This document shows positions 28,596 through 52,306 of a stretch of DNA of 64,000 nt, piece by piece. The DNA is from Candidatus Uhrbacteria bacterium RIFCSPLOWO2_01_FULL_47_25 (GTDB lineage Bacteria; Patescibacteriota; Patescibacteriia; GWA2-46-9). Under the pieces are notes generated by a model. The model worked only from the letters and a program-made list of their open reading frames with translations. It did no database searches and was not told the origin of the DNA. The stretch is from assembly GCA_001791325.1 (NCBI GenBank), contig MGEK01000004.1:8566-72565 (forward strand), in the 5' to 3' direction. The position numbers and the translations under genes were made by a program. Each line of letters begins with the position of its first letter. Position 1 is the stretch's first letter.

Positions 28596-28601
28596 ACATA
28601 T

Positions 28602-29996: not shown

Positions 29997-30020
29997 CGGG
30001 TAGTGGCAGTTTTGAGTTGA

Positions 30021-31610: not shown

Positions 31611-31698
31611 CGCACAAGAGGTGCTAGAAACACCCACAATGAACATGGGCATTCGCGTGCCTTGACTGTATCGTTAGGTTTTTGTAATATGTATGAAT

Positions 31699-31802
31699 CC
31701 CGCACCATGGCTTAACGGCCATGGTATCTGATTAACACTCTTCGGGAATTTTTTAGACATTATGACCCACGCTGATGCGTGGGGTATCCTGCATGGTGCT
31801 GG
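31699..31802. mobile_element. MITE-like element family 2 (TIR ATCCCGCACCATG / CATGGTGCTGGAT), copy E1
   Basis: Terminal inverted repeats; internal CACGCTGATGCGTGG hairpin shared with the copy at 52163. Confidence 0.55.
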
Positions 31803-31833
31803 ATGAACTTAAACTCGCATTATAAATAAAGAT

Positions 31834-32148
31834 ATGAATACAGCCGTCATCAAAACTGGGGGTAAACAATATTTGGTTAAGCCTGACCAACGACTTAAGG
31901 TTGAAAAACTAACCGGTGAAGTCGGCGCGGAGGTAGTTTTTAGCGACGTTTTGTTGGTTGCCAATAATGATCAGCTTATAGTCGGTCAACCAGTGGTAAA
32001 AGAGGCAAAAGTGACAGCCACGATTGCCAAGCAGGGTAGAGGCAAAAAAATTATCGTGCAAAAATATAAACCCAAAGTTCGTTATCAAAGGAAGCGCGGT
32101 CATCGTCAACCGTTCACAGAGATCGTTATTGGAAATATAGAGTATTAA
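31834..32148 (+). CDS. rplU: 50S ribosomal protein L21
   Basis: AVIKTGGKQYLV...KVTATIAKQGRGKKIIVQKYKPKVRYQRKRGHRQPFTEI. Confidence 0.9.
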   Translation: MNTAVIKTGGKQYLVKPDQRLKVEKLTGEVGAEVVFSDVLLVANNDQLIVGQPVVKEAKVTATIAKQGRGKKIIVQKYKPKVRYQRKRGHRQPFTEIVIGNIEY

Positions 32149-32253
32149 CCCCATTAGAGAATGCCCCGCCCCGCTACGCCACGGCGGGGTGCGGGGTGCA
32201 ATTTTCCCATACGAGCACGGGGTCTAATGCCCCGTGCGAGTTCTCTAACGGGG
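32149..32253. mobile_element. MITE/RPE-like element family 1, copy 2 (CCCCATTAGAGAATGCCCCGC...CTCTAACGGGG)
   Basis: TIRs; flanked by TTAA / TTAAC direct repeat; begins immediately after the rplU TAA. Confidence 0.65.
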
Positions 32254-32259
32254 TTAACT

Positions 32260-32319
32260 TACGAAAATACGAAATAATACGAAAGTACGAAATTGATCTT
32301 GACTTACGAAAGTACGAAA
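32260..32319 (+). repeat. six TACGAAA units with 8-10 bp spacing
   Basis: Units at 32260, 32268, 32278, 32286, 32305, 32313. Confidence 0.7.
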
Positions 32320-32322
32320 AGA

Positions 32323-32970
32323 TTAGATTTCTTTTCTATTAAGGAAAGCGCTTTGCAATGTTGCTTCATCCGCGTATTCCAGCCGTGAGCCAGTGGGCAG
32401 GCCTCTGGCTAGACGCGTAATTTTGATTTTAGTTGGTTTTAATAGTTTGGCTAAGTATAAGGCCGTGGCGTCTCCTTCTAAATTGTTATTAAGCGCTAAA
32501 ATAATCTCAATAATTCCGTCTGATTTAATTCTTTCATAAAGCTCTTTAAATCTAAGCTGTTTAGGATTAATGCCCTCAATTGGGTTAAGTAGGCCCCCTA
32601 GCACAAAGTATAGCCCGTGGTAAAGATTTGTTTGTTCAATGGGAAAAATATCGCGCCCTTCGGCAACCACGCATAATTCCATCTTGTTTCTTTTGACATT
32701 ACCGCATATAGAGCAGATTGATTTCTCGCTAAATTGTCCGCATTGTTTACAGGCAGTGACTTGTTTGTGAAGATTTAAAATTGAAGTAGCCAACAGCGCG
32801 GCTGTTTCTTGTTTGCCTTGCAACAGCGAAAAGGCAAATCTTTCCGCGGTACGGCGTCCAATGCCGGGTAAAACCATAAAGGCTTCAATGGCGCGACGTA
32901 ATGGTTCTGGATAGCGAGACATACCCCGTATATCAACATTCATAGGCAAACACTGCACGGCGTTTGCCAA
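32323..32970 (-). CDS. recR: recombination protein RecR (probable true start at Met 17, near 32922)
   Basis: YPEPLRRAIEAFMVLPGIGRRTAERFAF; C4 zinc finger CKQCGQFSEKSICSIC; Toprim domain. Confidence 0.85.
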   Translation of the reverse strand: MANAVQCLPMNVDIRGMSRYPEPLRRAIEAFMVLPGIGRRTAERFAFSLLQGKQETAALLATSILNLHKQVTACKQCGQFSEKSICSICGNVKRNKMELCVVAEGRDIFPIEQTNLYHGLYFVLGGLLNPIEGINPKQLRFKELYERIKSDGIIEIILALNNNLEGDATALYLAKLLKPTKIKITRLARGLPTGSRLEYADEATLQSAFLNRKEI

Positions 32971-33093
32971 TCAATATAAGCTGATACCCAATGTTTATTA
33001 GATATTGGTAATCAGCAAAGAAGTTCATATGATAACAATTTTGTAATGAATGTTGTATTACGGGGCATAGCAGTTGGAGCTATAAGCCGTAAG

Positions 33094-34479
33094 CTAAAAT
33101 ACCGGCACTCCTTGATCCTGCTGCCGCTCAAGATTTTGGAAGCTTACTCGGCCTTCGTCAAAGTATAATTCCACGACACCAGTCGGTCCATTACGGTGTT
33201 TTTCTATTCTAATTTGAGCAATATTACGTTCCTCTGGCGATACATCGCGAACGCTGCGATCCATGGCCTTCCTGTATATAAATAAAACAACGTCCGCGTC
33301 TTGCTCTATGGTTCCAGAATCGCGCAAGTCGGCGAGTTTAGGAATGGCCGGACTACGAGCTTCCACCGCCCTAGACAGTTGCGACAACGCTAATATCGGT
33401 ATATTTAACTCACGCGCCAAGCTTTTAAGGGCTCTGGTGATTTCAGATATTTCTTGCACGCGGTTGTCTGATTTGGTGCGCGATTCCATAAGTTGTAAAT
33501 AATCAATTATCAGTAGCCCCAGTCCTTTTTCCATCTGTAAACGGCGGGCTCTGGCGCGTATTTCCATAATATTAGCCGTGGCTCCGTCGTCAATATATAT
33601 TGGAGCATTAGATAAAACATCCATAGCGTGACCAATTCGGCTAAAATCATTATCGTCGCCTTTGTCAGAAAGACGACCAGTGCGCATTCGCCAGAGATCA
33701 ACGCCCGCCTCAGCGCACAGCATTCTATCCACAAGCTGTTCTTTAGACATTTCCAGACTAAAAATACCAACCGGTATTTTTGACTGAATAGCGGCATGGC
33801 GAGCTATATCCAGAGCTAATGAGGTTTTACCAACCGAGGGCCGCGCGGCAAGTATAATTAAATCTGATTTTTGCATACCAGCCAGCTTAGCGTCCAACTC
33901 TTTAAATTGCGTTGGTATTCCCCTGAGCTTCCCTCCTTCATGATGTAATTCATCAATGCGTTCAAATGCTTCGTTGAGCAGTGATTTTATTGATATGAAG
34001 ACATGGCGAAGATATTTTTGAGTGACAGAAAACAATGTTCGTTCGGCTTGATCTAAAGTGTTATCAATATCTGGTTCCTCTTCGTATCCTAGACCAGTAA
34101 TTTTTACACCCGCTTCCAGTAGCCGCCGAAGAGTCGCCTTCCGTTGAACAATACCAGCATAGTTATCCGCATGGGCGGCCGTGGGCACGGCGTTTACCAA
34201 GCTGACTAGGTAACTTTGACCGCCTATAATTTGAAGTTGCTTTTTTTCATCCAGACGGTTGCTGATGCTTAGTATATCTATTGGTTCATGTTTTAAGAAA
34301 AGATCCATCATGGCCTCATAAATAAAGCGATGAGCATCCCTGTAAAAATCTTCTGCCGTGACAAGATCAATAACCCTAAAGACCGCTTCTTTGTCCAGCA
34401 ATAGGGCGCCCAGTAAGGACTGTTCAGCCTCCAAATTTTGGGGCGGTACTTTGATTACTTCATTTGTATCTGCGGGCAT
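33094..34479 (-). CDS. dnaB: replicative DNA helicase DnaB
   Basis: N-terminal DnaB domain; Walker A LIILAARPSVGKTSLALD; RecA-like C-terminal domain. Confidence 0.9.
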   Translation of the reverse strand: MPADTNEVIKVPPQNLEAEQSLLGALLLDKEAVFRVIDLVTAEDFYRDAHRFIYEAMMDLFLKHEPIDILSISNRLDEKKQLQIIGGQSYLVSLVNAVPTAAHADNYAGIVQRKATLRRLLEAGVKITGLGYEEEPDIDNTLDQAERTLFSVTQKYLRHVFISIKSLLNEAFERIDELHHEGGKLRGIPTQFKELDAKLAGMQKSDLIILAARPSVGKTSLALDIARHAAIQSKIPVGIFSLEMSKEQLVDRMLCAEAGVDLWRMRTGRLSDKGDDNDFSRIGHAMDVLSNAPIYIDDGATANIMEIRARARRLQMEKGLGLLIIDYLQLMESRTKSDNRVQEISEITRALKSLARELNIPILALSQLSRAVEARSPAIPKLADLRDSGTIEQDADVVLFIYRKAMDRSVRDVSPEERNIAQIRIEKHRNGPTGVVELYFDEGRVSFQNLERQQDQGVPVF

Positions 34480-34480
34480 A

Positions 34481-34602
34481 CCCCGTTAGAAGCCCTCGGC
34501 CCCGCTATGCGGGGCTGTGGTGATTAAAATATTTAATTGGTTGATAGATTGTACCATAACTATAAGGATTGATGATTATATTAAATTAGGCTTCTAACGG
34601 GG
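34481..34602. mobile_element. MITE/RPE-like element family 1, copy 3, abutting the dnaB start codon (element...GGGG-T-ATG on the minus strand)
   Basis: TIRs CCCCGTTAGAAG / CTTCTAACGGGG; CATA direct repeats at both flanks. Confidence 0.65.
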
Positions 34603-34713
34603 CATACTGTTAACTTTATAACGGGCTTATGCTTTGGGCAAGAGGAAAGAATGGGGGCTGTCTGTGGATTATTGCGTTTATGTGCCTTATGCTATCATAT
34701 AAAGCAGTAATAT

Positions 34714-35397
34714 ATGTATGAACACACATTGGGGCAAGTGCTTTGGTTGGCCTTTCGAGATACAATTGAAAGCCTGCTTATATATTTGCCTTTAGTTTTT
34801 GGGGGATTATTGATATTTGTAGGCGGATGGGTGGCGGCTGGATTGATTGGCCGAGGGGTAGAGCGTTTAGGGGAATATTTGGGGCTAGATTACGTTTGGG
34901 AAAGGTTACGACTGAATGAGCCATTGATGTATATATGGCCAAAGCAGGCCATATCTCACGCTTTGGGGATGCTTGTTCGCTGGCTTTTGATCTTTTTATT
35001 GCTATCGGCCGTAGCTGAGGCGTTACATTTGTCTGCCGTGACAGGCTTCCTGCAATCACTAGTTAGTTATCTGCCGCACCTCGTGTCGGCTATAGTAATT
35101 TTAATGATCGGCGTGCTAGCAGCCGGTGTTTTGGATAAATTGACGACCATTGGCGTGGTGGCTACTCGCTTTGGGCCGAGTGATTTGCTTGGGGCTGTTA
35201 TTCGCTGGAGTGTTTTGATTTTTTCTTTCTTGGCCGCCGCTAGAGAACTGGGCGTTTCTAATGATTTAATCCAAACGGTAATAACAGGATTTGTGGCTAT
35301 GTTGGCTATAGCCGGAGGCATTGCTTTTGGTCTTGGCGGTAAAGATTATGTGACTGGTCTTATCAGTAAAATTAATCGTGACTTCACGCGCCAATAA
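34714..35397 (+). CDS. small membrane protein with two 'conserved TM helix' (MscS N-terminal-like) repeats
   Basis: Two hydrophobic repeat units; no channel domain. Confidence 0.4.
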   Translation: MYEHTLGQVLWLAFRDTIESLLIYLPLVFGGLLIFVGGWVAAGLIGRGVERLGEYLGLDYVWERLRLNEPLMYIWPKQAISHALGMLVRWLLIFLLLSAVAEALHLSAVTGFLQSLVSYLPHLVSAIVILMIGVLAAGVLDKLTTIGVVATRFGPSDLLGAVIRWSVLIFSFLAAARELGVSNDLIQTVITGFVAMLAIAGGIAFGLGGKDYVTGLISKINRDFTRQ

Positions 35398-35431
35398 TTA
35401 AAACTAAAGCTTATCTTTATGCGCTTAATTT

Positions 35432-35533
35432 ACCCCGTTAGAGAATGCCCCGCTCCGCCCCGCCGCGGCGGGGTGCAATTTCCCCGTACGAGCACGACGG
35501 GGTCTAATGCCCCGTGCGAGTTCTCTAACGGGG
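35432..35533. mobile_element. MITE/RPE-like element family 1, copy 4
   Basis: CCCCGTTAGAGAATGCCCCGC...GTGCGAGTTCTCTAACGGGG. One frame translates without stops to NPVRELARGIRP...GAFSNGV (spurious ORF 35425..35649). Confidence 0.65.
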
Positions 35534-35571
35534 TTTGCTAGATTATTGGCATCTGTTTTATATTCAGATCC

Positions 35572-35647
35572 GTGGGTCCGTAGCTCAATGGTAGAGCAAG
35601 AGCCTTTTAAGCTCGAGGTTCTGGGTTCGAGTCCCAGCGGACCCACC
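35572..35647 (+). tRNA. tRNA-Lys(TTT)
   Basis: GTGGGTC/GACCCAC acceptor; anticodon loop CTTTTAA; T-arm CTGGG-TTCGAGT-CCCAG. Confidence 0.8.
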
Positions 35648-35771
35648 ATAGATAGAGATATAAATAAAATAAAAAGTTCTAGTTGTGATATTATTTTTTA
35701 TAATATGACACTATGGGGCGGGCATAGGGTATTCTGGAAGGTGCGGGATAAATCTATTTAGTAATTATCAA

Positions 35772-36446
35772 ATGGCATTTCTTGATAAGCTTATTCTTAA
35801 TGAAGGCGAGGAGCTTGTCAGCGTCACCAGAGCGCATTGGTTGGCGGTGCTTGCGCCTTATGTGATTATCGCGCTAATTTTCTTAGCGCCGTTCTTTTTT
35901 CTCTGGCCATTGTTTCAATTTGGCTCTATTGGAGTTTATGTTTTTTTCGTTATTATTTTTATTGCTATATTTTTGGCGGCGCGAGAAAATCGTCGCTGGC
36001 AACGCAGTATGCTAGTTTTAACATCAACCCGCCTTTTATGGTTTGAACAAAAAGGCTTTTTTGATCGTACGGTAACTGAAACTTTTTATCAAAACATCCA
36101 GGATATATCTTATCGCATTAAAGGATTTTTTCAGACTATGGCTCATTTCGGGTCATTGCGCGTTCAGATTGCCGGAGCTAGTGGGCCGCTTGAAATCAAA
36201 TATTTGCCCAATCCTGATAAAATTCAACATGTGATTCTTGATTTTCGGGAACAAAAAAGAGCAGTTGTATCTGGCGCCGATAATGAATGGTGGGAGGATC
36301 GTATATCAGCTATGAGTAAGGAGGAGCGGCAAATTTTTTTTAGCAATATTCGCAATCAAATTGGCGAGGAGGCTTGGTATAATTTATTCAGACCAAAAAC
36401 TCAAAGCAGTGTTAAAGACAGAAACTTGCCCGAGGCGCTCCTCTAA
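35772..36446 (+). CDS. membrane protein with bacterial PH (bPH_2, YdbS/YdbT-like) domain
   Basis: Two TM helices then LVLTSTRLLWFEQKGFFDRTVTETFYQNIQDISYRIKGF. Confidence 0.5.
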   Translation: MAFLDKLILNEGEELVSVTRAHWLAVLAPYVIIALIFLAPFFFLWPLFQFGSIGVYVFFVIIFIAIFLAARENRRWQRSMLVLTSTRLLWFEQKGFFDRTVTETFYQNIQDISYRIKGFFQTMAHFGSLRVQIAGASGPLEIKYLPNPDKIQHVILDFREQKRAVVSGADNEWWEDRISAMSKEERQIFFSNIRNQIGEEAWYNLFRPKTQSSVKDRNLPEALL

Positions 36447-36460
36447 AGTAAAATATCCGT

Positions 36461-36874
36461 ATGCATGTGGTCAATCGCCTAGGCGATCTTAAATCGTGGC
36501 TACCGTGGATTATAGGTATTTTGATAGCCTTAATGTCGCTGGCGATTGGAAAACTGGCGGTTAAGAGGTATAGTATACAGCAGGAAATTAAGGCCGAGCA
36601 ACGGGAAATATCCTTAGCGGGCGCTAGGAATGACGAGCTGTTAACGCTTTTGCAATACGTTCAATCGCCGATTTATGCCGAGGAGCAGGCGCGACTGAAG
36701 TTCGGTTTGGCTAAACCGGGCGAGAAGGCAGCTGTTGTGCCAGATGTTAATAGCGGAAATACTGATAATGGCGCGGGAACCCTGTTTGAGAAATCAAATG
36801 GCGACATTGAATCAGGGCAACCAAATTATCAAAAATGGTGGAATTATTTTTTTGCAAGTTATGAATGGCAATAA
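36461..36874 (+). CDS. septum formation initiator (FtsB/DivIC-like)
   Basis: Single TM + coiled coil + EEQARLKFGLAKPGEKAAVV. Confidence 0.6.
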   Translation: MHVVNRLGDLKSWLPWIIGILIALMSLAIGKLAVKRYSIQQEIKAEQREISLAGARNDELLTLLQYVQSPIYAEEQARLKFGLAKPGEKAAVVPDVNSGNTDNGAGTLFEKSNGDIESGQPNYQKWWNYFFASYEWQ

Positions 36875-37853: not shown

Positions 37854-37884
37854 TCCCGTTAAAGCCCAAAGATAAAAATTTATA

Positions 37885-38011
37885 TGGAGCTGGAGGCGAG
37901 ATTTGAACTCGCGACCCATCGCTTACGAAGCGATTGCCCCGCCTGCCATCGCCTAAGCTTCCTGTTAGAATTGAACTGACGTCCGCGGTTTACCTGCCCG
38001 CCATTTGCCTA
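37885..38011 (-). pseudogene. tRNA-derived fragments: 3' two-thirds of a tRNA (anticodon arm ATCGC-TTCGTAA-GCGAT, T-arm GCGAG-TTCAAAT-CTCGC, CTCCAGC-T-CCA) without a matching 5' acceptor strand, plus palindromic stem arms
   Basis: Reverse complement read directly; required acceptor 5' strand GCTGGAG is absent. Confidence 0.45.
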
Positions 38012-38083
38012 AGCCAGCGGTGAGATTTGAACTCACGACCTCTGCTTTACGAAAGCATTGCTCTACCTCTGAGCTACGCTGGC
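38012..38083 (-). tRNA. tRNA-Thr(CGT)
   Basis: Reverse complement GCCAGCG-TA-GCTC-AGAGGTA-GAGC-A-ATGCT-TTCGTAA-AGCAG-AGGTC-GTGAG-TTCAAAT-CTCAC-CGCTGGC-T. Confidence 0.8.
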
Positions 38084-38190
38084 AAATCGCGATGGCAGGC
38101 GGGCGATACCGCTGTTCTACCACTGAACTAAGGAGGCTCGGGACATGGCGGGCAGGTCTACCGTTGAGCTACTCCGGCATGCTTTAATAA
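38084..38190 (-). pseudogene. tRNA 5'-half-like fragment (GCCTCCTTAGTTCAGTGGTAGAACAGCGG) plus stem arms complementary to 37937-37954 / 37985-38009
   Basis: D-arm recognisable; no cognate 3' half. Confidence 0.4.
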
Positions 38191-38194
38191 AATA

Positions 38195-38265
38195 AGCGGG
38201 ATACCGGGATCGAACCGGTGCTCTCAGCTTGGGAAGCTGATGTAATGCCACTATACTAATCCCGC
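38195..38265 (-). tRNA. tRNA-Gly(CCC)
   Basis: Reverse complement GCGGGAT-TA-GTAT-AGTGGC-ATTAC-A-TCAGC-TTCCCAA-GCTGA-GAG-CACCGG-TTCGATC-CCGGT-ATCCCGC-T. Confidence 0.8.
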
Positions 38266-38269
38266 AAAA

Positions 38270-38340
38270 GATACGGGTAACCCCGCTTAGCGGGGTGTTC
38301 CTAGCTTGGGAAGCTAGTGTACTGCCATTGTACTACACCC
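38270..38340 (-). pseudogene. tRNA-Gly(CCC)-like 5' two-thirds (acceptor GCGGGTG, D-arm, anticodon arm CTAGC-TTCCCAA-GCTAG) followed by a CCCCGC-TAA-GCGGGG hairpin instead of a T-arm
   Basis: Reverse complement read directly. Confidence 0.45.
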
Positions 38341-38540
38341 GCACGATACACGACCATAGCCAATCGGTTCTTCTTTTGATATAATAAAAAACAAAACTTG
38401 TCAGAATACGTTATACGTTTCTAGAGTATAGAAAATGGAGCATTTATTGGCAAGGTGTTGGGTGATATTTGCCAGTCTGCCGCTCTTTTTTATTAAATTT
38501 CACGAATTCCCGAGCATAAGTTCGGAGATTATTTAGAAGA

Positions 38541-39221
38541 ATGATTCATCTAAAAGGCGTTACCAAACAATATCCCGGCAACATAGTTGCCATCCGTAAT
38601 ATAACCCTGCACATTGAACCGGGTGAGTTTGTTTCCGTAGTTGGTCAGTCGGGCGCCGGCAAAAGCACGATAGTGCGCCTATTGATGGCCGAAGAAGCGG
38701 CTAGCCGCGGTCGTATTATTGTGGGAGGCTGGGATATCACCGGCATTAAAAGACGAGAAATACCAGTTCTAAGACGCCAGATCGGCGTTGTGTTTCAAGA
38801 TTATAAGCTGCTGCGCAAGAAGACAATTTTTGAAAATGTTTCCTTTGCCCTAGAAGTATGCGGGGAGCCGCGCCAAAAAATTAAGACTCTCGTGCCGCAA
38901 CTCTTAAAAATAGTTGGGCTTGAAAATCAGCAGAGAAGATTCCCAGATCAACTATCTGGCGGAGAACAGCAAAGAGTGAGCATTGCGCGAGCGTTAGCCC
39001 ACAGACCCAAGCTTCTTTTGGCGGATGAACCAACGGGCAATCTTGATTCGCTTAATGCTCAAGAGATTGTTGACGTATTACGTAAAATCAATGAACTCGG
39101 CACCACTATTATGTTAGTGACGCACAATCGTGACATCGTTAACGCTTTAAAAAAGCGGGTAATTACGCTTGATCACGGCGAAATAATATCTGATCAAGCA
39201 GTAGGCCGTTATGTTTTATAG
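38541..39221 (+). CDS. ftsE: cell division ATP-binding protein FtsE
   Basis: ABC ATPase with [35 protein letters not shown]. Confidence 0.85.
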
Positions 39222-40128: not shown

Positions 40129-40160
40129 GTTAGCGGCTGGCGCGAAGTCCCGCCCTCTTC

Positions 40161-40231
40161 TCGGGGGTCGTCTAATGGCAGGACATCACCCTTTGGAGGT
40201 GAGTATGATGGTTCGAATCCATCCCCCCGAG
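40161..40231 (+). tRNA. tRNA-Gln(TTG) embedded in an ~18-bp extended acceptor helix (CCGCCCTCTTCTCGGGGG...CCCCCGAGAAGAGGGCGG)
   Basis: TCGGGGG/CCCCCGA acceptor; anticodon arm TCACC-CTTTGGA-GGTGA; T-arm GATGG-TTCGAAT-CCATC. Confidence 0.8.
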
Positions 40232-40289
40232 AAGAGGGCGGGAGAGCCGTGAACTCAATAGTTTAGAAATGGCATAGAGCTATAAATAG

Positions 40290-40793: not shown

Positions 40794-40806
40794 TTTTTAA
40801 GGTATG

Positions 40807-40952
40807 CCCCGTTAAAAGTCTGACTCAATATAATTATCGCATCTTTAACCATGACACTATCTATCAATCAATTAAATATCATCCCGCATGGCGGGACCAC
40901 AGAAGATAAAATTCTTTTGGGAATTTTATCTTCATAAGGACTTCTAACGGGG
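40807..40952. mobile_element. MITE/RPE-like element family 1, copy 5, inserted at the antiporter start codon (TATG duplicated; ...CTTCTAACGGGG-T-ATG)
   Basis: TIRs CCCCGTTAAAAGTC / GACTTCTAACGGGG; flanks AAGGTATG|...|TATGCC. Confidence 0.65.
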
Positions 40953-40953
40953 T

Positions 40954-42651: not shown

Positions 42652-42689
42652 TAGTTTGTATTAATCATTATCTATAAATCTAAAAATAT

Positions 42690-43319: not shown

Positions 43320-43368
43320 GGTACAAATGTATGGAAAGATCTAAATTATCCTATATCCATCCCGCACC

Positions 43369-43497
43369 ATGCAGGATACCTTCCGCCCGAGGCGCTCGCC
43401 TGCCGGACGGGCAGGGATCGGCGCGGGAGGGAATGCTAAAGAGATTCTTGAAGGGAATTATGCCAGATGCCGAGGTCCACAAGTCATGGTGCGGGAT
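43369..43497. mobile_element. MITE-like element family 2, copy E3 (ATCCCGCACCATG...CATGGTGCGGGAT) lying in the 5' end/leader of the htrA-like gene in an open reading frame
   Basis: 13-bp perfect TIRs; ATCCAT direct flanks; internal GC-rich hairpins. Confidence 0.55.
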
Positions 43498-44632
43498 CCA
43501 TTTAGCGGCGGCTGTTTTAATTATCTCTTTTGTTTTGGGCGGTGTTTCTTTTTCGGCGCCTCCCGGGAATAAATCGCCGGCGGTGTCGGCGCCGTCTAAA
43601 GTAGCTGTCCAAAATACCAAACCGTCTGTGCCAGCGTCCTTACTGCCGGTGGCAACAGTGGATGAGGAAGAAAAAATAATCTCCTTGATTAATAAAGCTT
43701 TGCCCAGTGTTGTGAACATTGTGGGCAGCAAGCTTGACCAAAATGGCAATAAAGAAGTGATTACGAGAGGGACAGGTTTCGTAGTTGATCCAAAAGGACT
43801 TTTGCTAACGAATCGTCATGTGGTTAGTCAAGATAATCTAACCTATACTGTTTTCTTTTCTGATGGTTCTAAATACTTGGCTACTATTCTAGGACGCGAC
43901 CCCTTAAACGATCTTGCCATCGTGCAAATACTGGGCGATAAATTTCCGGCCCTACCGCTTGCCAACTCTGACAAAATTCGTATAGGTCAAACAGTTGTAG
44001 CCATTGGTAATTCACTCGGCCGTTACAGCAATACCGTTACCAAGGGTATTATTAGCGGTCTGGGCCGTTCCGTGGCAGCCAGTGATAACATTACTGGACA
44101 AACCGAAACGCTAGATGATGTTATTCAAACCGACGCGGCGATCAATTTAGGAAATTCCGGCGGCCCTCTCTTGAACTCCAAGGGTGAAGTCTTGGGCATT
44201 AACACCGCCATTGAACAATCTGGCCGCGGCGTTGGATTCGCCATTCCTATTAACGACGCTAAAAAAGTTTTGGAATCATACAGCCATTTTGGTAGAATAG
44301 TGCGACCGTACTTAGGGGTGAGATATGTCACGGTAACTTCCGATATTCAGGATGAATTCAAACTATCATATGATTATGGCGCGTTAATTAACGCCGGGGA
44401 ATTGGCTAGCGGACCGGCGGTAGTTCCCGGCAGTCCGGCCGAAAAAGCTGGCCTCAAAACAGGAGACGTGATCCTTGGGGTAAATGGTGTTTTAGTTCGC
44501 GGTAATATCACGCTCTTGAAACTTATACAGCAAAAAAAGCCAGGTGATTTTATAACCTTGCTAGTGGCAAGAGGCAAGGCCGTTTTAAATATTGAGGCAA
44601 CCATTGTGGAGTTGCCTGCCTATAAGCCATAA
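43433..44632 (+). CDS. HtrA/DegP-family serine protease (trypsin-like domain + PDZ). The longer ORF from 43331 runs through the MITE-like element
   Basis: TM anchor; catalytic triad context LLLTNRHVV, DLAIVQI, GNSGGPLLN; C-terminal PDZ. Confidence 0.8.
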   Translation: MLKRFLKGIMPDAEVHKSWCGIHLAAAVLIISFVLGGVSFSAPPGNKSPAVSAPSKVAVQNTKPSVPASLLPVATVDEEEKIISLINKALPSVVNIVGSKLDQNGNKEVITRGTGFVVDPKGLLLTNRHVVSQDNLTYTVFFSDGSKYLATILGRDPLNDLAIVQILGDKFPALPLANSDKIRIGQTVVAIGNSLGRYSNTVTKGIISGLGRSVAASDNITGQTETLDDVIQTDAAINLGNSGGPLLNSKGEVLGINTAIEQSGRGVGFAIPINDAKKVLESYSHFGRIVRPYLGVRYVTVTSDIQDEFKLSYDYGALINAGELASGPAVVPGSPAEKAGLKTGDVILGVNGVLVRGNITLLKLIQQKKPGDFITLLVARGKAVLNIEATIVELPAYKP

Positions 44633-44713
44633 TCAGCAGTATTAATCGTTGACAATTGAGCATATTTTTGGTATACCTAATCTTATTGTAGTAGGAAGAT
44701 AATAAATAGTTTC

Positions 44714-45193: not shown

Positions 45194-45201
45194 AGCGTCA
45201 T

Positions 45202-46665: not shown

Positions 46666-46666
46666 T

Positions 46667-47101
46667 TTGTTATTTATGCAAATTAATAATTTAGTAATGG
46701 TATTTGGAACATTTGACGTGCTCCATCCAGGGCATTTGTGGTTTCTTAAAAAAGCGTCTCAATATGGACGATTAATTGTGGCCTTGACGCCGGATAAAAT
46801 GTGCCTCAAATATAAAGATCATTTGCCATGTCATAGTTTTATCCAACGGAAAAGTCATCTAGAGGATATTATTTATTTAGATAAGGTGATTAGCGCTGAT
46901 ACTCGGGCGGGATCTTGGCAAACAGTGCAACAATTGCGCCCATCTATTATCGTTTTGGGTTATGACCAAAAATTATTGAGGCGCCATTTAGAAAAACGTT
47001 TAAGAGAGTTAAATCTAAATCCTAGAATAATCATGTTAAAAGCTTATCGTCAGCATTTTTATCAGTCATCGCGCCTGCGAGCGATAGCCGAAACAGTATG
47101 A
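46667..47101 (+). CDS. cytidylyltransferase-like nucleotidyltransferase (HxGH family)
   Basis: VFGTFDVLHPGHLWFLKKA. Confidence 0.55.
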   Translation: MLFMQINNLVMVFGTFDVLHPGHLWFLKKASQYGRLIVALTPDKMCLKYKDHLPCHSFIQRKSHLEDIIYLDKVISADTRAGSWQTVQQLRPSIIVLGYDQKLLRRHLEKRLRELNLNPRIIMLKAYRQHFYQSSRLRAIAETV

Positions 47102-48342
47102 TTGATCCGATCATTCTTAGAGAAAACTCCAAAATTATTGAAGAAACACTCAAAAAGCGCGGCTGGCGCACAGATATTACTGCCGTTCAATCGGCTGACG
47201 AAAAGTACCGGCAATTGCTTCAGACCGTTGAAAAAATGCGAGCAGCGATCAACGAACGATCAAAAAGTAAGGTGACAATCAAAGAACAGGAAATTTTGCG
47301 TGTCGATAAGCGCAAGTTGAAAGCCAGTGAAACAGCCCTAGCCAAGGCTAAGTTGAAAGCGGAAGCGCTTTTGAGGGAATTACCCAATTTGCTTAAAGAT
47401 GATGTGCCGGCAGGGCAAGATGAAAACGATAACGTGGTCATAAAAGTTGTTGGCAAGCCGCCTCATTTCCCTTTCCCTTTTAAAGATTATTTAACCTTAG
47501 CCGCCGAGCATGATCTTATTGATCTTGAGCGGGCCGCTAAAGTTTCTGGATCCCGTTTTTATTATCTTAAAAACGAAGCAGCTTTGTTAAGCATGGCTTT
47601 AGTGCATTATGGTCTTGATCTGGCGGTCAATGAAGGATTCGTGCCAATTTTACCACCAGTTATGATCGGTGAGGAAGCCATGAGTGGTATGGGCTATCTT
47701 GAGCATGGTGGTGAAGATGAAACGTATCATTTTATAAAAGACAACTTATACTTAGTTGGAACGTCGGAGCAGTCTATAGGGCCTATGCACAAGGATGAAA
47801 TCATTGAAGCCGATCGTCTGCCGCTTCGCTATGTTGCTTTTTCAACATGTTTCAGGCGCGAAGCCGGATCATATGGCAAGGACACGAAGGGCATTTTAAG
47901 AGTCCATCAATTTGATAAGTTGGAAATGTTTTCAATTACTACTCCTGAACGGTCTAACGAAGAACAAGAGTATTTATTGTCATTGCAAGAGAAATTCATG
48001 AACGGACTTGGTCTTGCCTATAGAGTGGTCAAACTTTGCGCTGGAGATTTGGGTGCTCCCAGCGCTCGTACCTATGACATAGAAACATGGATACCATCAC
48101 AGAATCGATATCGCGAAACCCACTCCACCTCAACCACGACAGATTTTCAATCCCGTCGTTTGCGTATTAGGTATCGCCGGCCGGATGGAACAGTCGCGCT
48201 CGTGCATATGCTGAACGGAACCTTGGTGGCGGTTAATCGTCCGTTAATTGCTATTTTAGAATATGGCCAGAAAGAGAATGGAACAATTAATTTGCCGTTG
48301 GTATTGAAGCCCTACCTCTTTGGGAAAGAATATATTGCATAA
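47098..48342 (+). CDS. serS: serine--tRNA ligase
   Basis: N-terminal coiled coil; class II core FRREAGSYGKDTKGILRVHQFDKLEMF. Confidence 0.9.
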   Translation: MIDPIILRENSKIIEETLKKRGWRTDITAVQSADEKYRQLLQTVEKMRAAINERSKSKVTIKEQEILRVDKRKLKASETALAKAKLKAEALLRELPNLLKDDVPAGQDENDNVVIKVVGKPPHFPFPFKDYLTLAAEHDLIDLERAAKVSGSRFYYLKNEAALLSMALVHYGLDLAVNEGFVPILPPVMIGEEAMSGMGYLEHGGEDETYHFIKDNLYLVGTSEQSIGPMHKDEIIEADRLPLRYVAFSTCFRREAGSYGKDTKGILRVHQFDKLEMFSITTPERSNEEQEYLLSLQEKFMNGLGLAYRVVKLCAGDLGAPSARTYDIETWIPSQNRYRETHSTSTTTDFQSRRLRIRYRRPDGTVALVHMLNGTLVAVNRPLIAILEYGQKENGTINLPLVLKPYLFGKEYIA

Positions 48343-48344
48343 GC

Positions 48345-49520
48345 ATGGCTGGTTTAGGTGATACTATTGAGCTATCTCTCATAAAGCAAATGGAGATGCT
48401 GGCTATGAGCCAGCCGGGAGTTATATCATTAGCTCAAGGTATTCCTTCGTTTGATACGCCAGAGCCAATTAAACGCCGTTCTGTTGAGGCTATTAATGAA
48501 GGGCGTGTTGCTCAATATTCATCCAGCTCTGGATTATCGGATTTAAGAGAGGACATTGAGGACGAGCTTGAAAGAGACGGCATGTCGTATGACTTTGCAA
48601 AAGAAATTATCGTGACTGCCGGATCAATTGAGGCTATTTGCGCGACTTTGCTGGCTATTTTAGATCCGGGCGATGAGGTGATATTGCCATCGCCAACCTA
48701 TACTTCATATGTACAAGCTATTTTGGTTGCTCGCGGAGTGCCGATTTTCATTCCGCTTCATGAAGAAAGTGGCTGGACACTTGATTTAGATTGTTTAAAG
48801 AATAAATTAACTTCAAGAACACGCGCCATTCTTTTATGCAACCCCAATAATCCCACGGGCTCTATTTTCTCCAAAAAACAATTATTAGCTATTGGAGCAA
48901 TCGCTGAATCGTATAATTTAATTATTTTGACTGATGAAGTATATAAAGATTTTATATATGATAAAGAGGCAAAAAATAATTTTTTTACCTTAGCCAGCAT
49001 ATCTGCTTTGCGACACCGCGTAGTACGTATTTTTAGTTTTTCTAAGGCCTACGCAATGACCGGATGGCGTATTGGTTATTTGCATACTGACCGCGCTCTA
49101 GCACAACGTATTCTTAGAGTTCATGATAGCTTAATTACTTGCGCTCCCGTGGTCTCGCAACATGCGGCTATGGCCGCTCTGCGGTTAAAGCCGCATGAAC
49201 TACAACATTATATTGACGAATACATGGTAAGGCGACAAATACTTTGCGATGGGCTTAATGCTTTGGACGAGTATTTTAGTCATACTGTTCCGGCGGCGAC
49301 TTATTTTGTTTTTCCGAAAATTAAGATTAAAATGTTTCCTGCCTATAATGGGTCCTTCTCTTTTGCCAAAGAGCTGCTGGAAAAAGTAAACTTGGCTGTT
49401 GTTCCGGGAATCGCTTTTGGTCCAGAAGGGGAGCATCATTTGCGATTATCCTTCGGCCGTTCACGCCATGATATAAACGAGGGGTTGCGAAGATTGAGCG
49501 TATTCATTAAGATGATTTAA
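48345..49520 (+). CDS. class I/II pyridoxal-phosphate aminotransferase (aspartate/aromatic aminotransferase-like)
   Basis: SFSKAYAMTGWRIGYL lysine-PLP region; NPNNPTG. Confidence 0.8.
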   Translation: MAGLGDTIELSLIKQMEMLAMSQPGVISLAQGIPSFDTPEPIKRRSVEAINEGRVAQYSSSSGLSDLREDIEDELERDGMSYDFAKEIIVTAGSIEAICATLLAILDPGDEVILPSPTYTSYVQAILVARGVPIFIPLHEESGWTLDLDCLKNKLTSRTRAILLCNPNNPTGSIFSKKQLLAIGAIAESYNLIILTDEVYKDFIYDKEAKNNFFTLASISALRHRVVRIFSFSKAYAMTGWRIGYLHTDRALAQRILRVHDSLITCAPVVSQHAAMAALRLKPHELQHYIDEYMVRRQILCDGLNALDEYFSHTVPAATYFVFPKIKIKMFPAYNGSFSFAKELLEKVNLAVVPGIAFGPEGEHHLRLSFGRSRHDINEGLRRLSVFIKMI

Positions 49521-49521
49521 T

Positions 49522-50250
49522 ATGCGTATCATGCTAAAAAAATTAGTGGAGCGTTATCTGCGATTTTTGACCGGTATAGTAATTTATCGCCATCAGCCAG
49601 ACATAATAGCGATAGCCGGAATTACCAGCAAAACCACCACAAAAAAATATATTGTTGATCATCTGCGTCAAATTGGTCTGGATGTAAGAGCCAATCCCAA
49701 AAGCTACAATACGGAGATAGGGCTACCCTTGGCGGTTTTATACGTGGAAGTATCAGGATATGCCTGGAAATCCTGGTTAAAAACGATTTGGCAATGTACG
49801 ACAATAGCCTTATTTTCCAAAAGATTTCCTAAAATACTGGTTCTGGAATTCGGGGTAAGCGGGGTGGGGGATATGAAGCACTTACTCAATATCGTTAAGC
49901 CACGCATAGCTGTATTTACGAATATTAGGCCATCTGATTTTAACCCAAACACAACGATTGATGAGCTAAATTCTGAAATGCTTGATCTTATGAAAGTAAT
50001 CCTCAATAACGGGTTGGTTATTTATAATTGGGATGACAATAATTTGCGTGCTTTGGCTAATCAATTTTCAGGGCAAAAGATCAGTTATGGTATCGGAGAA
50101 GGGGCAGATATTCAAGCAACCAATATTCAGCAGCATCTTGATGGGTTGTCCTGGGCTGTCTATGGTCAAAAAAGAAAGACGATAAAGTCCGGTCTGCACC
50201 ATATTTATGCTGAGTTGGCAGCCGATGCGGTGGCTAGAAGTTTTAAGTAA
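49522..50250 (+). CDS. Mur ligase family protein, short (central ATPase domain only; possibly truncated paralog/pseudogene)
   Basis: IIAIAGITSKTTTKKY...NTEIGLPLAVL...ILVLEFGVSGVGDM resembles MurF central domain; only 242 aa. Confidence 0.45.
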   Translation: MRIMLKKLVERYLRFLTGIVIYRHQPDIIAIAGITSKTTTKKYIVDHLRQIGLDVRANPKSYNTEIGLPLAVLYVEVSGYAWKSWLKTIWQCTTIALFSKRFPKILVLEFGVSGVGDMKHLLNIVKPRIAVFTNIRPSDFNPNTTIDELNSEMLDLMKVILNNGLVIYNWDDNNLRALANQFSGQKISYGIGEGADIQATNIQQHLDGLSWAVYGQKRKTIKSGLHHIYAELAADAVARSFK

Positions 50251-50358
50251 CCTATGAATAAAAAATATGCGCGGCAATATCGCGCACTGTGGCTATAATC
50301 TGGCTTCTTCTAGAAGTCTATAAAAATAAAAGGCTCCCTTTAGCTCAAATTTCTGCTT

Positions 50359-51210
50359 ATGCTGGTTTCGCGCTGGGGTCGCCAACCTATAAAGAAAAAA
50401 TGGCCAACTTTGAATTATCCAACAAATAGAAGAAACTATTCAGTAAGAGGCTTTCGGTCATTCAAGAGATATTTTGTGGCGTTATTTCTTTTATTTAGCG
50501 TCTATTTTTTTATTTATTCTTCTATTTTTGACATTAATCGTATCATTATATTGGGTAACGCCACTATAAATGCAAAAATCATAGAAGATATAGTTGATCA
50601 AATAAAAAAAGAAAAAAGATGGTTTATTTTTCCGCAGAAGAATATTTTATTTTTTGACGATAATTTTTTGAAATCTGAATTGATGAACAATATCCATTTA
50701 GATTCTGTACAAATTAAAAAACGTCCATGGGGTACGTTATATATATCTATTTCCGAAAAAACAGCCGTTGCTTTGTGGTTGAATCGTGGTCGTCACTATA
50801 CCCTTGACAAACAGGGAAAAATAATTGATGAAATTGGTTCTGTCTCCAATGATCAAGTTGATAATTTTGTAAAGATTACGAATAACTCATTAATACAAGA
50901 AACTAAAATAGGGGAGAGGGTAATGTCAGACCACGTTCTGGAAACTATCAAAAATATTAATTCCAAACTGCCGCCACAGATTGGAATTAAATTTAATTTA
51001 TTTGATATAAGTGAGGCTGAACAAGGAAAAATTATCGCTCGTACGGCTGAGAATTTTGCGGTTTACTTTAGTACCATTGCTGATGTAGCTCCTGAATTAA
51101 ACAAGCTAATCGCTTTTGTTTTAGAGAAAGATCGAGTTGATCGTAATTGGCGTGATAATATAAGCTATATTGACCTGCGTTTTGGCAGTACGAGAATTTA
51201 TTACAAGTGA
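50359..51210 (+). CDS. FtsQ/DivIB-like cell division protein (TM + POTRA)
   Basis: Basic N-terminus; TM YFVALFLLFSVYFFIY; INRIIILGNATINAKIIEDI POTRA-like start. Confidence 0.5.
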   Translation: MLVSRWGRQPIKKKWPTLNYPTNRRNYSVRGFRSFKRYFVALFLLFSVYFFIYSSIFDINRIIILGNATINAKIIEDIVDQIKKEKRWFIFPQKNILFFDDNFLKSELMNNIHLDSVQIKKRPWGTLYISISEKTAVALWLNRGRHYTLDKQGKIIDEIGSVSNDQVDNFVKITNNSLIQETKIGERVMSDHVLETIKNINSKLPPQIGIKFNLFDISEAEQGKIIARTAENFAVYFSTIADVAPELNKLIAFVLEKDRVDRNWRDNISYIDLRFGSTRIYYK

Positions 51211-51419
51211 ATCTCAGTTTGCGTCGACAGACATAGGGAAGTAACCTTTAAAATAGATTAATTTGTACTAGAATATCCGATATTTATTATGTAAAAACTC
51301 TCATACTACATAGTATGATAGTTTTAGATCATTATAATATTGTACGACACAAAAATTACTGTTAATAATTGATCAATGAGTGCTATACTGAATACAGCCC
51401 ATAATCAAGGAGGGACAAA

Positions 51420-51608
51420 ATGAGACAACAGACGGCGAAAGTTACCCGTCAAAAAACTAAGCTGGCTGGCAAGGAGGCTGATCGTACAGTAAGGCAAGTT
51501 ATGAATCGCATGGTCAAGTTCGTAGGCTGGCCTAAATCAAGGGCAAGGCGTGCCGCCCGAAATTGGGTTAAGGCAATCAATAAGGGTGAGGTGGAATTTG
51601 GCAGTTAA
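51420..51608 (+). CDS. small basic hypothetical protein
   Basis: 62-aa ORF preceded by an imperfect palindrome and followed by hairpin 51634-51662. Confidence 0.3.
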   Translation: MRQQTAKVTRQKTKLAGKEADRTVRQVMNRMVKFVGWPKSRARRAARNWVKAINKGEVEFGS

Positions 51609-51742
51609 CTGGTGCTGTCAGCCGGGCTTGTTCAAGGAAGATACCTCTAGTATCTTCCTTTATCTTCCTTATGATGTCGTAAAAGGTATATTGTGCGACG
51701 CAATATACATATTGTAATAATGTTTTTTTACCTCTCCCCTAG

Positions 51743-52150
51743 TTAAAATCGCTCAACAAACAATCTTTTGCCAGCAAAGAAAGTTATTAGAGCAACTATG
51801 GCTTGCGCTAAACTTATCACAGTGATTCCTGAAGGGGATATTAAGGCCAAGGTTATAATTATTATAAACACAGACCAACCCAATAAATCATATTGCAATT
51901 CAGCCAATGGTGACCACCGTAAGTATGTTTTTGCTTCATTCTCCCCTATTCCGGCGCCTTGCTTGGTTTGTTTGTGATATTTATAGATTGAAAACCAGCC
52001 GCTAAAAATGATGGCGGTTAAGCCCATAATAATCATCGCGGTTTTTGTCAGATTTTCTAGGGCCTCATAATAAGCGATATAAAAAACAAAAAAAGCAACC
52101 AATAAAAATAACCAAAGTAATTGTTTTATCATTTCCGCAAATTGATTCAT
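51743..52150 (-). CDS. hypothetical membrane protein (4 TM)
   Basis: Hydrophobic profile only. Confidence 0.45.
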   Translation of the reverse strand: MNQFAEMIKQLLWLFLLVAFFVFYIAYYEALENLTKTAMIIMGLTAIIFSGWFSIYKYHKQTKQGAGIGENEAKTYLRWSPLAELQYDLLGWSVFIIIITLALISPSGITVISLAQAIVALITFFAGKRLFVERF

Positions 52151-52162
52151 ATTAATTATTTA

Positions 52163-52261
52163 CCTCGCACCATGCCTGCTGAATAGGCAGGGCTTGTGCT
52201 GTGTATTTGAGTATTCCTCCTCACGCTACGCTGACGCGTGGTAATTCTGCATGGTGCGGGG
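52163..52261. mobile_element. MITE-like element family 2, copy E2 (CCTCGCACCATG...CATGGTGCGGGG), 12 bp upstream of the minus-strand membrane-protein start
   Basis: TIRs and shared internal CACGCT..GCGTGG hairpin with E1. Confidence 0.55.
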
Positions 52262-52306
52262 TTCATTTACGGCTTTACAGGCATAATTTTGGTGGTACGG
52301 GGGGTT

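What the first reader, a model, noticed from the sequence alone, without database searches (positions are those of the whole stretch)
31699..52261. Second MITE-like family (TIR ATCCCGCACCATG / CATGGTGCGGGAT), three copies, one overlapping the htrA-like 5' end
Copies lie at 31699-31802 (upstream of rplU), 52163-52261 (12 bp upstream of a minus-strand membrane-protein start) and 43369-43497. They share TIRs and an internal CACGCTGA(C/T)GCGTGG hairpin.

The 43369 copy lies within the open reading frame that leads into the HtrA-like protease, without stop codons. It would contribute ...IHPAPCRIPSARGARLPDGQGSAREGMLKRF...HKSWCGIH to a cytoplasmic N-terminal extension if translated from the upstream ATG. 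Together with family 3 (56897-57101, which shares CCCGCACC), this indicates a genome heavily colonised by small palindromic elements.
Basis: seen in the sequence. Interest (0 to 1): 0.55.

Follow-up and report, generated by a model that had tools for sequence, protein, structure and literature searches.

The report
Small mobile palindromic elements in Uhrbacteria
A low-copy family of about 100-140-bp inverted-repeat mobile DNA elements in a Candidatus Uhrbacteria genome; one copy inserted in frame into the start of the HtrA protease gene, and a close relative still has the unoccupied site.

Summary
Three full copies lie at 31698-31803, 43360-43496 and 52163-52261. The middle copy is inverted relative to the other two and lacks the CACGCTGAYGCGTGG hairpin. 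A 3'-end-only copy lies at 35713-35749. Another contig of the same species carries one more full variant and one more half copy.

These are MITE-like mobile elements. They have a 13-bp terminal inverted repeat and a further conserved segment at one end (GGTAYYCTG before the repeat). They are flanked by direct repeats (ATGAA, ATCCA, ATAAA) and have no coding capacity for a transposase.

A relative with over 90% identical HtrA has the empty site, MEKHRLSYIH|LAAAV. The window carries an exact 141-bp (47-codon, stop-free) insertion there, so the upstream ATG at 43331 is the ancestral start. The rplU and membrane-gene sites are also unoccupied in relatives.

No Rfam family matches. No transposase was found, so the mobilising enzyme is unknown.

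This is a new member of a known kind, similar in behaviour to Rickettsia palindromic elements. Interest is moderate.

A more unusual side observation: the window holds nested tRNA genes whose junctions carry the same CCCGCACC motif.

The parts
31698..31803 (+). Copy c1, 106 nt (TCCCGCACCATG...CATGGTGCTGGA), in the rplU 5' leader
   Evidence: RNA fold -42.5 kcal/mol, z -4.3. Absent at the equivalent place in ortholog L118.
31693..31697 (.). Left flanking direct repeat ATGAA of c1. The right copy is at 31803-31807.
   Evidence: Read. Without the element, the distance from the -10 box to the ATG is 33 nt, against 34 nt in L118.
31662..31690 (+). Sigma-70-like promoter TTGACT-N17-TAATAT. c1 begins about 7 nt after the -10 box.
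   Evidence: The same arrangement, TTGACC-N17-TAAGAT, is present in L118.
43360..43496 (-). Copy c2, 137 nt, inverted relative to c1 and c3, inserted in frame at codon 10 of htrA
   Evidence: The insertion is 141 bp (47 codons) relative to the empty allele in L117.
43355..43359 (.). Left flanking direct repeat ATCCA of c2. The right copy is at 43496-43500. The empty site in L117 has one copy.
   Evidence: Alignment A3.
43331..44632 (+). htrA (S1C protease with PDZ domain). ATG 43331 is the ancestral start. In-frame ATGs inside the element lie at 43433 and 43460.
   Evidence: P0125 reads MEKHRLSYIHLAAAV. Public annotations use all three starts (433, 399 and 390 aa).
52163..52261 (+). Copy c3, 99 nt, between the M23 peptidase gene and the 135-aa membrane-protein gene, both on the minus strand. 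Its termini are degenerate.
   Evidence: Orthologous intergenic regions are at most about 10-55 nt and carry no such element. Flanks are TTTA/TTCA, or ATTTAC at 52158-52163 and 52265-52270.
35713..35749 (+). Half copy c4: hairpin plus GGTATTCTGGAAGGTGCGGGAT only, 22 nt upstream of ORF 35772
   Evidence: I20; nhmmer E 1.8e-6 with the 3'-module profile.
56897..57101 (+). Family 3 element (CCCCGCACCTTTCGGCGTTA...TAACGCCGTAAAGGTGCGGGG) between the CIRCE operator (56870-56896) and the clpB start (57103)
   Evidence: fold -71.3 kcal/mol, z -5.0. Absent in ortholog L128. A CCCCGTTAGA-family element occupies the same site in L124.

Best explanation
The copies belong to a low-copy, lineage-restricted family of non-autonomous DNA transposons (MITEs) in a Candidatus Uhrbacteria genome (GW2011_GWA2_46_9 / RIFCSPLOWO2_12_FULL_46_10).

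**Anatomy (shown).** Each element is about 100-140 bp. It starts with a 13-bp terminal inverted repeat, (A)TCCCGCACC+3 nt, followed by a variable hairpin and an AT-richer core. A second variable hairpin and the 9-nt segment GGTAYYCTG precede the other terminal repeat.

**Mechanism (inferred).** A transposase encoded elsewhere binds the terminal repeats, cuts the element out or copies it, and inserts it at short AT-N-N-A(T) targets. Repair of the staggered cut duplicates the target. The maximal flanking repeat is 5-6 bp. Its true length is ambiguous between 2 and 6 bp because the target ends mimic the element ends.

**Consequences (partly shown, partly inferred).**
- c1 landed at the predicted first transcribed bases of the rplU leader.
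- c3 landed between two co-oriented genes.
- c2 landed in codon 10 of htrA. It added 47 stop-free codons between the charged N-terminus and the membrane anchor, which the protein tolerates as a longer cytoplasmic tail. Alternatively, translation restarts at the in-frame ATG 43433 or 43460.
- Where an element is co-transcribed, its repeats should form a long stem that could be a target for double-strand RNases. This was not tested.
For: - **Empty versus filled site for c2.** P0125 (387 aa, same 90% cluster) reads MEKHRLSYIH|LAAAVLIISF. The DNA alignment shows an exact 141-bp insertion with ATCCA(T) duplicated. The start codon position is orthologous in L117 and L001.
- **Matching flanks.** Three elements have matching flanking repeats: ATGAA (c1), ATCCA (c2) and ATAAA (element A in L116).
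- **c1 site.** L118 lacks c1, and the distance from promoter to ATG is preserved once c1 is removed.
- **c3 site.** L124, L127 and L128 lack c3.
- **More copies in the same species.** Another contig carries element A and half copy B. Same-species origin follows from the shared locus-tag prefix A3H10 and KKU accessions.
- **Concerted change in the repeats.** CACC-ATG/CAT-GGTG becomes CACC-TTC/GAA-GGTG in the variant subfamily. Three of the 13 stem pairs show double changes.
- **No known RNA family.** Rfam gives no match even at E<=1.
- **Mixed orientation.** Orientation relative to transcription is mixed, and one copy is intragenic.
Against: - No transposase or autonomous element with matching ends was found in the window or in the 9 kb upstream of it.
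- Copy number is low. I saw four full and two half copies. The exact 22-mer found only one further locus in the JGI metagenomes.
- c3 has only imperfect flanking repeats. Family 3 and the tRNA-associated junctions show none.
- The variable hairpin next to the conserved end is kept as structure, not as sequence. That feature would also fit a single-strand-recognising transposase or an RNA function.
- Both collection scans seem to hide the window's own contigs, so genome-wide counts are incomplete.
Confidence: 0.85

Rival explanations
1. The copies are instances of a structured cis-regulatory or small RNA motif: a multi-stem junction closed by a 13-bp helix that acts in 5' leaders.
For: - Four of six copies (c1, c4, A, B) lie in sense orientation just upstream of a gene start.
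- The folds are strong.
- The hairpins vary in sequence but keep their position, and the closing stem shows double changes.
Against: - The elements are absent from orthologous leaders in relatives.
- They have flanking target duplications.
- c2 and c3 are antisense relative to the other copies, and c2 is inside a coding region.
- No Rfam family matches.
- The downstream genes are functionally unrelated: rplU, htrA, a membrane protein and RNase J.
Confidence: 0.04
2. The elements are moved as single-stranded DNA by a Y1 (HUH) transposase, like REP/RAYT units or the palindrome-associated derivatives of IS200/IS605. On this reading the enzyme recognises the subterminal hairpins, not the terminal repeats.
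For: - All six copies have a hairpin of variable sequence directly before the conserved end (alignment).
- Half copies consisting of one end plus its hairpin persist (c4, B).
Against: - These families do not make target duplications and insert next to a fixed tetra- or pentanucleotide. Here the flanks differ (ATGAA, ATCCA, ATAAA) and are duplicated.
- The 13-bp terminal inverted repeats are not a feature of IS200/IS605.
- No GTAG-type REP motif is present.
Confidence: 0.05
3. The family is one branch of a wider system of inverted-repeat-bounded cassettes ending in CCCGCACC/GGTGCGGG that are tied to tRNA genes. On this reading the elements derive from, or are handled by, the machinery that created the nested tRNA genes of this genome.
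For: - The same 8-mer bounds the cassette that carries tRNA-Gln(CTG) inside the T-loop of another tRNA-Gln.
- In relative L117, an insert ending in GGTGCGGGAT follows tRNA-Gln(TTG) and is itself followed by a duplicated tRNA 3' part.
- The outer 7 bp of the element, ATCCCGC/GCGGGAT, equal the acceptor stem of this genome's tRNA-Gly(CCC) and are followed by ACCA.
- c4 lies about 100 nt after tRNA-Lys.
Against: - The tRNA junctions show no target duplication, while c1, c2 and A do.
- Apart from the 8-10-mer there is no sequence similarity (nhmmer).
- The CCA is not kept in the other subfamilies (CCT in A and family 3).
- The acceptor-stem match was noticed after the fact.
Confidence: 0.06

Closest known systems
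Prokaryotic MITEs in general (definition as in the review PMC10969869)
   Same: Size under 500 bp, terminal inverted repeats, flanking direct repeats, no coding capacity, insertion near AT-rich gene starts, and transcripts predicted to form stable stem-loops.
   Different: Copy number is very low. No related insertion sequence has been identified. The element is asymmetric, with about 22 conserved nt at one end and 13 at the other. The host is a Patescibacteria (CPR) organism, for which my two literature searches found no described MITE family.
Rickettsia palindromic elements (RPEs)
   Same: A palindromic element of about 100-150 bp inserted in frame into a protein-coding gene, which stays open and gains a peptide segment (PMC10969869). 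The same reading frame is stop-free in all four full copies here.
   Different: Only one of six copies is intragenic here. No conserved peptide exists beyond the 7 residues encoded by the conserved end. The lineage is unrelated. The open-frame signal is weak (joint chance about 0.024).
Correia elements of Neisseria
   Same: A short inverted-repeat element often co-transcribed in 5' leaders. Its paired ends form a stem that RNase III cuts in Neisseria (PMC10969869). c1 and c3 should form such a stem if transcribed.
   Different: Correia elements duplicate TA and have roughly 26-bp repeats with an IHF site (from my own knowledge). Here the flanking repeat is ATNNA-like and no processing data exist.
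Archaeal split and intron-containing tRNA genes (Nanoarchaeum, Caldivirga; mentioned in PMC10714607)
   Same: This applies only to the side observation. tRNA halves are separated by a sequence bounded by GC-rich complementary segments that could bring the halves together.
   Different: Here the halves are nested around another complete tRNA in a bacterium, and the break sits in the T-loop or after the D-arm. No bulge-helix-bulge motif and no expression were examined.

Membership tests
MITE (non-autonomous DNA transposon) | Short (<500 bp) with no transposase coding capacity | tested here: met
   Full copies measure 99-137 nt.
MITE (non-autonomous DNA transposon) | Terminal inverted repeats | tested here: met
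   A 13-bp repeat is present in all four full copies, with 0-1 unpaired position each.
MITE (non-autonomous DNA transposon) | Flanking target-site duplication | tested here: met
   ATGAA (c1), ATCCA (c2, verified against the empty site) and ATAAA (A). c3 is only 3/4, or offset by 4 nt.
MITE (non-autonomous DNA transposon) | Presence/absence polymorphism between related genomes | tested here: met
   c2 is filled in the window, P0121, P0124 and P0126, and empty in P0125/L117. The c1 and c3 sites are unoccupied in more distant relatives.
MITE (non-autonomous DNA transposon) | Several dispersed copies in one genome | tested here: met
   Three full copies and one half copy lie in the window. One full and one half copy lie on another contig of the same species. 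The total count is unknown.
MITE (non-autonomous DNA transposon) | An autonomous insertion sequence with the same ends that mobilises it in trans | tested here: inconclusive
   No transposase domain was found among 20 window ORFs or among the precomputed Pfam assignments of the called genes in the 9 kb upstream of the window. nhmmer and motif scans found no further element copy there. The rest of the genome could not be scanned.
Rickettsia palindromic elements | In-frame insertion into ORFs that remain open | tested here: met
   c2 adds 47 stop-free codons to htrA.
Rickettsia palindromic elements | A family-wide reading frame encoding a conserved peptide | tested here: inconclusive
   The same frame is open in 4 of 4 full copies, with a joint chance of 0.024 for the three non-coding copies. 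Only PAPCRIP is shared.
Rickettsia palindromic elements | Sequence homology to RPE consensus sequences | not tested
   No RPE sequences were available in the tools. The host phylum differs.
REP / IS200-IS605-derived palindromic elements | No target duplication, and insertion next to a fixed short motif | tested here: not met
   The flanks vary and are duplicated.
Curated structured RNA families (Rfam 15) | Match to a covariance model | tested here: not met
   There are no matches over any copy at gathering score or at E<=1.

The most novel reading that the evidence does not exclude
The CCCGCACC-terminated elements may be part of one system with the nested tRNA genes of this genome. On this reading, inverted-repeat-bounded cassettes, some carrying a whole tRNA gene, insert into genes, including other tRNA genes. 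Their ends mimic a tRNA acceptor stem plus ACCA (ATCCCGC-A-CCA equals the acceptor 3' strand of the genome's tRNA-Gly(CCC)). The interrupted outer tRNAs would still be made as split or intervened molecules. In parallel, the family may be kept translation-compatible in one frame, as Rickettsia palindromic elements are.
Probability: 0.12. Interest if true: 0.7.

Novelty: new member of a known kind. Interest (0 to 1): 0.35.

Why it matters
- **Gene annotation.** Public records give this HtrA three different starts (433, 399 and 390 aa). The comparison shows that the longest form uses the ancestral start and that the extra 47 residues are a recent mobile-element insertion.
- **Mobile DNA in a reduced genome.** The finding documents recently mobile non-autonomous DNA (insertions polymorphic among close relatives) in a small, reduced CPR genome. 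My two literature searches found no description of such elements in CPR bacteria.
- **A natural experiment.** It offers a case of a protein tolerating a palindromic insertion in its signal-anchor region.
- **Effects on expression.** The elements sit in leaders of core genes (rplU, clpB, RNase J), so they may affect expression. That would need transcript data.

Tried and rejected
- **GTDB species genomes, two-ended pattern.** The scan gave 110 hits. The 80 listed were single hits in unrelated, mostly high-GC taxa and none were Patescibacteria. I treated them as chance. The source genome seems to be hidden from the scan.
- **Viral contigs.** Two hits, both without a partner repeat. I treated them as chance.
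- **Rfam at gathering score and at E<=1.** Nothing matched over any copy.
- **Pfam on 20 window ORFs.** No transposase or integrase was found.
- **The contig 9 kb beyond the window's left end.** No further copy was found. An apparent 84-nt strain difference in dnaK was a run of N.
- **Strain-level polymorphism of c1 and c3 and of the tRNA-Gln nest.** All same-species contigs carry them.
- **Internal ATGs as the true htrA start, with the upstream frame as chance.** Rejected as the ancestral state, because orthologs start at the upstream ATG. Which start is used today remains open.
- **Hammerhead-like reading of CUGAUG in the c1 hairpin.** Rejected, because it is only a loop and has no Rfam support.
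Full report
**Observation**

- c1 has ATCCCGCACCATG at 31697-31709 and CATGGTGCTGGAT at 31792-31804.
- c2 has the same repeat at 43359-43371 and 43485-43497, not 43369.
- c3 has CCTCGCACCATG at 52163-52174 and CATGGTGCGGGG at 52250-52261, 12 nt from the minus-strand ATG at 52150.

The core 8-mer CCCGCACC occurs 10 times in the window against 1.43 expected, and no shuffle out of 100 reaches 10. c1 and c3 fold far better than shuffles on both strands (z -4.3 to -4.8). c2 is weaker, at -3.0 and -1.8.

Alignment shows that c2 is inverted relative to c1 and c3. It also shows that one end carries a longer conserved block, GGTAYYCTG(C/G)A(T/A)GGTGCGGGAT, always preceded by a hairpin whose sequence differs between copies. 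Only c1 and c3 share the CACGCTGAYGCGTGG hairpin.

A profile search finds no further full copy in the window. It does find a 3'-end-only copy at 35713-35749, 22 nt before ORF 35772.

**Organism**

The HtrA of the window is identical to KKU47583.1 of Parcubacteria group bacterium GW2011_GWA2_46_9 and to proteins of several Candidatus Uhrbacteria RIFCSP assemblies. This is a Patescibacteria (CPR) genome from groundwater.

**The htrA copy is a recent in-frame insertion**

The closest orthologs are 374-392 aa long and begin with a short charged stretch followed directly by the membrane anchor.

Within the same 90% identity cluster, one member (P0125, 387 aa) begins MEKHRLSYIHLAAAVLIISFVLGG. The window protein begins MERSKLSYIH, then 47 residues, then LAAAVLIISFVLGG.

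The contig that encodes P0125 (L117) has the same gene order: Na+/H+ exchanger, prolyl isomerase, htrA, greA, and onward. In the DNA alignment, the window carries exactly 141 extra bases. ATCCA(T) is present once in L117 and on both sides of the insert in the window. A more distant ortholog (L001) is also empty, and its start codon lies 9 nt after the isomerase stop, against 11 nt in the window.

Three conclusions follow:

- The ATG at 43331 is the ancestral start.
- The element landed in codon 10.
- The insert is a multiple of three and has no stop codon.

The added segment is rich in Arg and Lys and precedes the hydrophobic anchor, so a longer cytoplasmic tail is the simplest outcome. In-frame ATGs at 43433 and 43460 inside the element could also serve as starts. 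Public annotations use all three (433, 399 and 390 aa). One natural variant has GTG at 43433 (P0124), so that ATG is not strictly kept. Which start is used today cannot be settled from sequence.

**The other sites**

*c1 and rplU.* Upstream of rplU, a sigma-70-like promoter (TTGACT-N17-TAATAT, 31662-31690) is matched in the ortholog L118 by TTGACC-N17-TAAGAT. In L118, 34 nt separate the -10 box from the ATG and there is no element. In the window, the -10 box is followed by gtATGAA, then c1, then ATGAAC. Removing c1 and one repeat leaves 33 nt. c1 is therefore an insertion at about the first transcribed base of the rplU leader. That it is transcribed is an inference.

*c3.* c3 lies between the M23 peptidase gene and the 135-aa membrane-protein gene. 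In L127 and L128 these genes are at most about 10 nt apart. In L124 they are 55 nt apart, and the spacer holds a short palindrome of the other family. The c3 termini carry changes and its flanks match only 3 of 4 (TTTA/TTCA). Alternatively, they match 6 of 6 (ATTTAC) with a 4-nt offset. It looks older than the other copies.

**More copies in the same genome**

A scan of JGI metagenomes for the 22-mer found four contigs that all represent a single locus. There, between pth and the RNase J gene, lies a full variant A. It has ATCCCGCACCTTC...CTGGAAGGTACGGGAT and is flanked by ATAAA on both sides. Next to it is a 3'-end-only copy B with the exact 22-mer.

The pth and murD proteins of that contig carry the same assembly locus-tag prefix (A3H10) and the same KKU accession series as the window's proteins. 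It is therefore the same species.

The scan did not return the window's own copies, although a JGI contig of this region exists. The window's own contigs seem to be hidden from the scan, and counts are lower bounds.

About 62 kb of orthologous DNA from relatives holds no copy. The family is therefore low-copy and lineage-restricted.

**Mechanism**

The evidence for a non-autonomous DNA transposon moved by a transposase acting on its ends is:

- terminal inverted repeats;
- matching short flanking repeats at three independent sites, one of them verified against an empty site;
- no coding capacity;
- mixed orientation relative to transcription;
- absence at orthologous sites.

The flanking repeats all read AT-N-N-A, and the element ends read (A)T...A(T). 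The boundary can therefore be drawn to give a duplication of 2, 4, 5 or 6 bp. The maximal repeat is 5-6 bp.

The variant subfamily changes ATG/CAT to TTC/GAA on both ends together. The alignment fold shows double changes at 3 of 13 stem pairs. This fits either recognition of both ends by one protein or selection for pairing.

I found no transposase in the window or upstream of it. The enzyme and its family remain unknown.

The position-conserved but sequence-variable hairpin next to the long end is the one feature that would also suit a hairpin-recognising single-strand transposase. The target duplications and terminal repeats argue against that class.

A regulatory-RNA reading is not supported. 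No Rfam family matches even at E<=1, and the empty sites speak against a conserved motif.

**Comparison with known elements**

The family meets the working definition of prokaryotic MITEs (PMC10969869).

The htrA case behaves like Rickettsia palindromic elements, which often insert in frame into genes (same review). In the orientation that is translated in htrA, the same frame is free of stops in all four full copies, and it is the only open frame of six in c1 and c3. Shuffling the interiors gives a joint chance of 0.024 for the three untranslated copies. That is suggestive but not enough to claim a translation-compatible design.

Two literature searches found no description of MITEs in CPR bacteria.

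**Wider context**

- The CCCCGTTAGA family has six paired copies in the window: 14 motif hits against 2.5 expected. The copy after rplU is absent in L118.
- Family 3 is a 205-nt element with about 21-bp repeats and a strong fold (z -5.0). It sits between the CIRCE operator and the clpB start.
- The ortholog L128 has only 18 nt at that place, and L124 has a CCCCGTTAGA-family element there.
- Family 3 shows no flanking duplication.

**Side observation: nested tRNA genes**

The remaining CCCGCACC hits bound a cassette that carries a complete tRNA-Gln(CTG) and sits inside the T-loop of a second tRNA-Gln. The halves of that second tRNA (5663-5714 and 5890-5912) would still pair. The 266-nt region folds at -127.9 kcal/mol with z = -10.

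A similar nest surrounds tRNA-Thr at 37880-38185.

In relative L117, tRNA-Gln(TTG) is followed by a 104-nt insert ending in GGTGCGGGAT and then a duplicated tRNA 3' part, whereas the window is empty at that site.

These junctions lack target duplications and share only the 8-10-mer with the family studied here. I keep them apart from the main conclusion and record the possible link as the most novel reading not excluded.

**Verdict**

The family is a new member of a known kind, with a cleanly documented in-frame insertion into htrA. Interest is moderate.

Noticed in passing
window 5470-5980: Nested tRNA-Gln genes. A complete tRNA-Gln(CTG) at 5791-5863 sits inside an inverted repeat, CCCCGCACCAATTT/AAATTGGTGCGGGG. 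That repeat in turn sits in the T-loop of a second tRNA-Gln(CTG), split into 5663-5714 and 5890-5912. A third outer layer comprises 5530-5582 and 5959-5978. The fold of 5655-5920 has z = -10. The arrangement is fixed in 10 strain contigs.
   Followed up: partly
window 37880-38360 (minus strand): A second nest. The complete tRNA-Thr(CGT) at 38012-38083 is flanked by 5' and 3' tRNA pieces, joined through the inverted repeats cctgcccgccat/atggcgggcagg and cccgcctgccatcgc/gcgatggcaggcggg (fold z -4.85). A 5' partial tRNA-Gly at 38294-38352 lies next to the complete tRNA-Gly(CCC).
   Followed up: partly
window 40140-40250 and L117 1-180: tRNA-Gln(TTG) has a 12-bp leader/trailer inverted repeat (TCCCGCCCTCTT / AAGAGGGCGGGA) that extends the acceptor stem. 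In relative L117 the tRNA is followed by a 104-nt insert ending in GGTGCGGGAT and then a duplicated tRNA 3' part. A similar insert with a duplicated 3' end follows tRNA-Lys in L118 (7500-7790).
   Followed up: partly
window 7543-7663, 32149-32253, 34481-34602, 35433-35533, 40807-40952, 62245-62348: Six copies of another palindromic element family (ends CCCCGTTAGA...TCTAACGGGG). The copy after rplU is absent in ortholog L118 and is flanked by TTAA.
   Followed up: partly
window 56839-57111: The clpB control region has a promoter (TTGACA-N17-TAATCT) and then a perfect CIRCE operator (TTAGCACTC-N9-GAGTGCTAA, 56870-56896), which the family 3 element directly abuts. The clpB start appears shifted to ATG 57103 or GTG 57109. 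Relatives have 18 nt or a different element at this spot.
   Followed up: partly
window 21350-30250: Dense arrays of GAATATAGAATAT-type repeats flank three paralogous ORFs (21517, 27057, and the repeat-flanked 30127). The first two begin with a 23S rRNA-intervening-sequence-protein / bAvd-like four-helix domain. Cohesin and dockerin domain proteins lie nearby.
   Followed up: no
window 7686-21356: A single ORF of 4556 aa with internally repeated segments. It is probably a giant surface protein.
   Followed up: no
L002 3005-3060: In a relative, the isomerase-htrA spacer holds a 40-nt hairpin, CCCCGCATCGTCCGCCCGAGGCGGACTGGTGCGTCGGG. It shares TCCGCCCGAGGCG with the c2 hairpin, and may be a remnant of or relative to the family at nearly the same site.
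   Followed up: no
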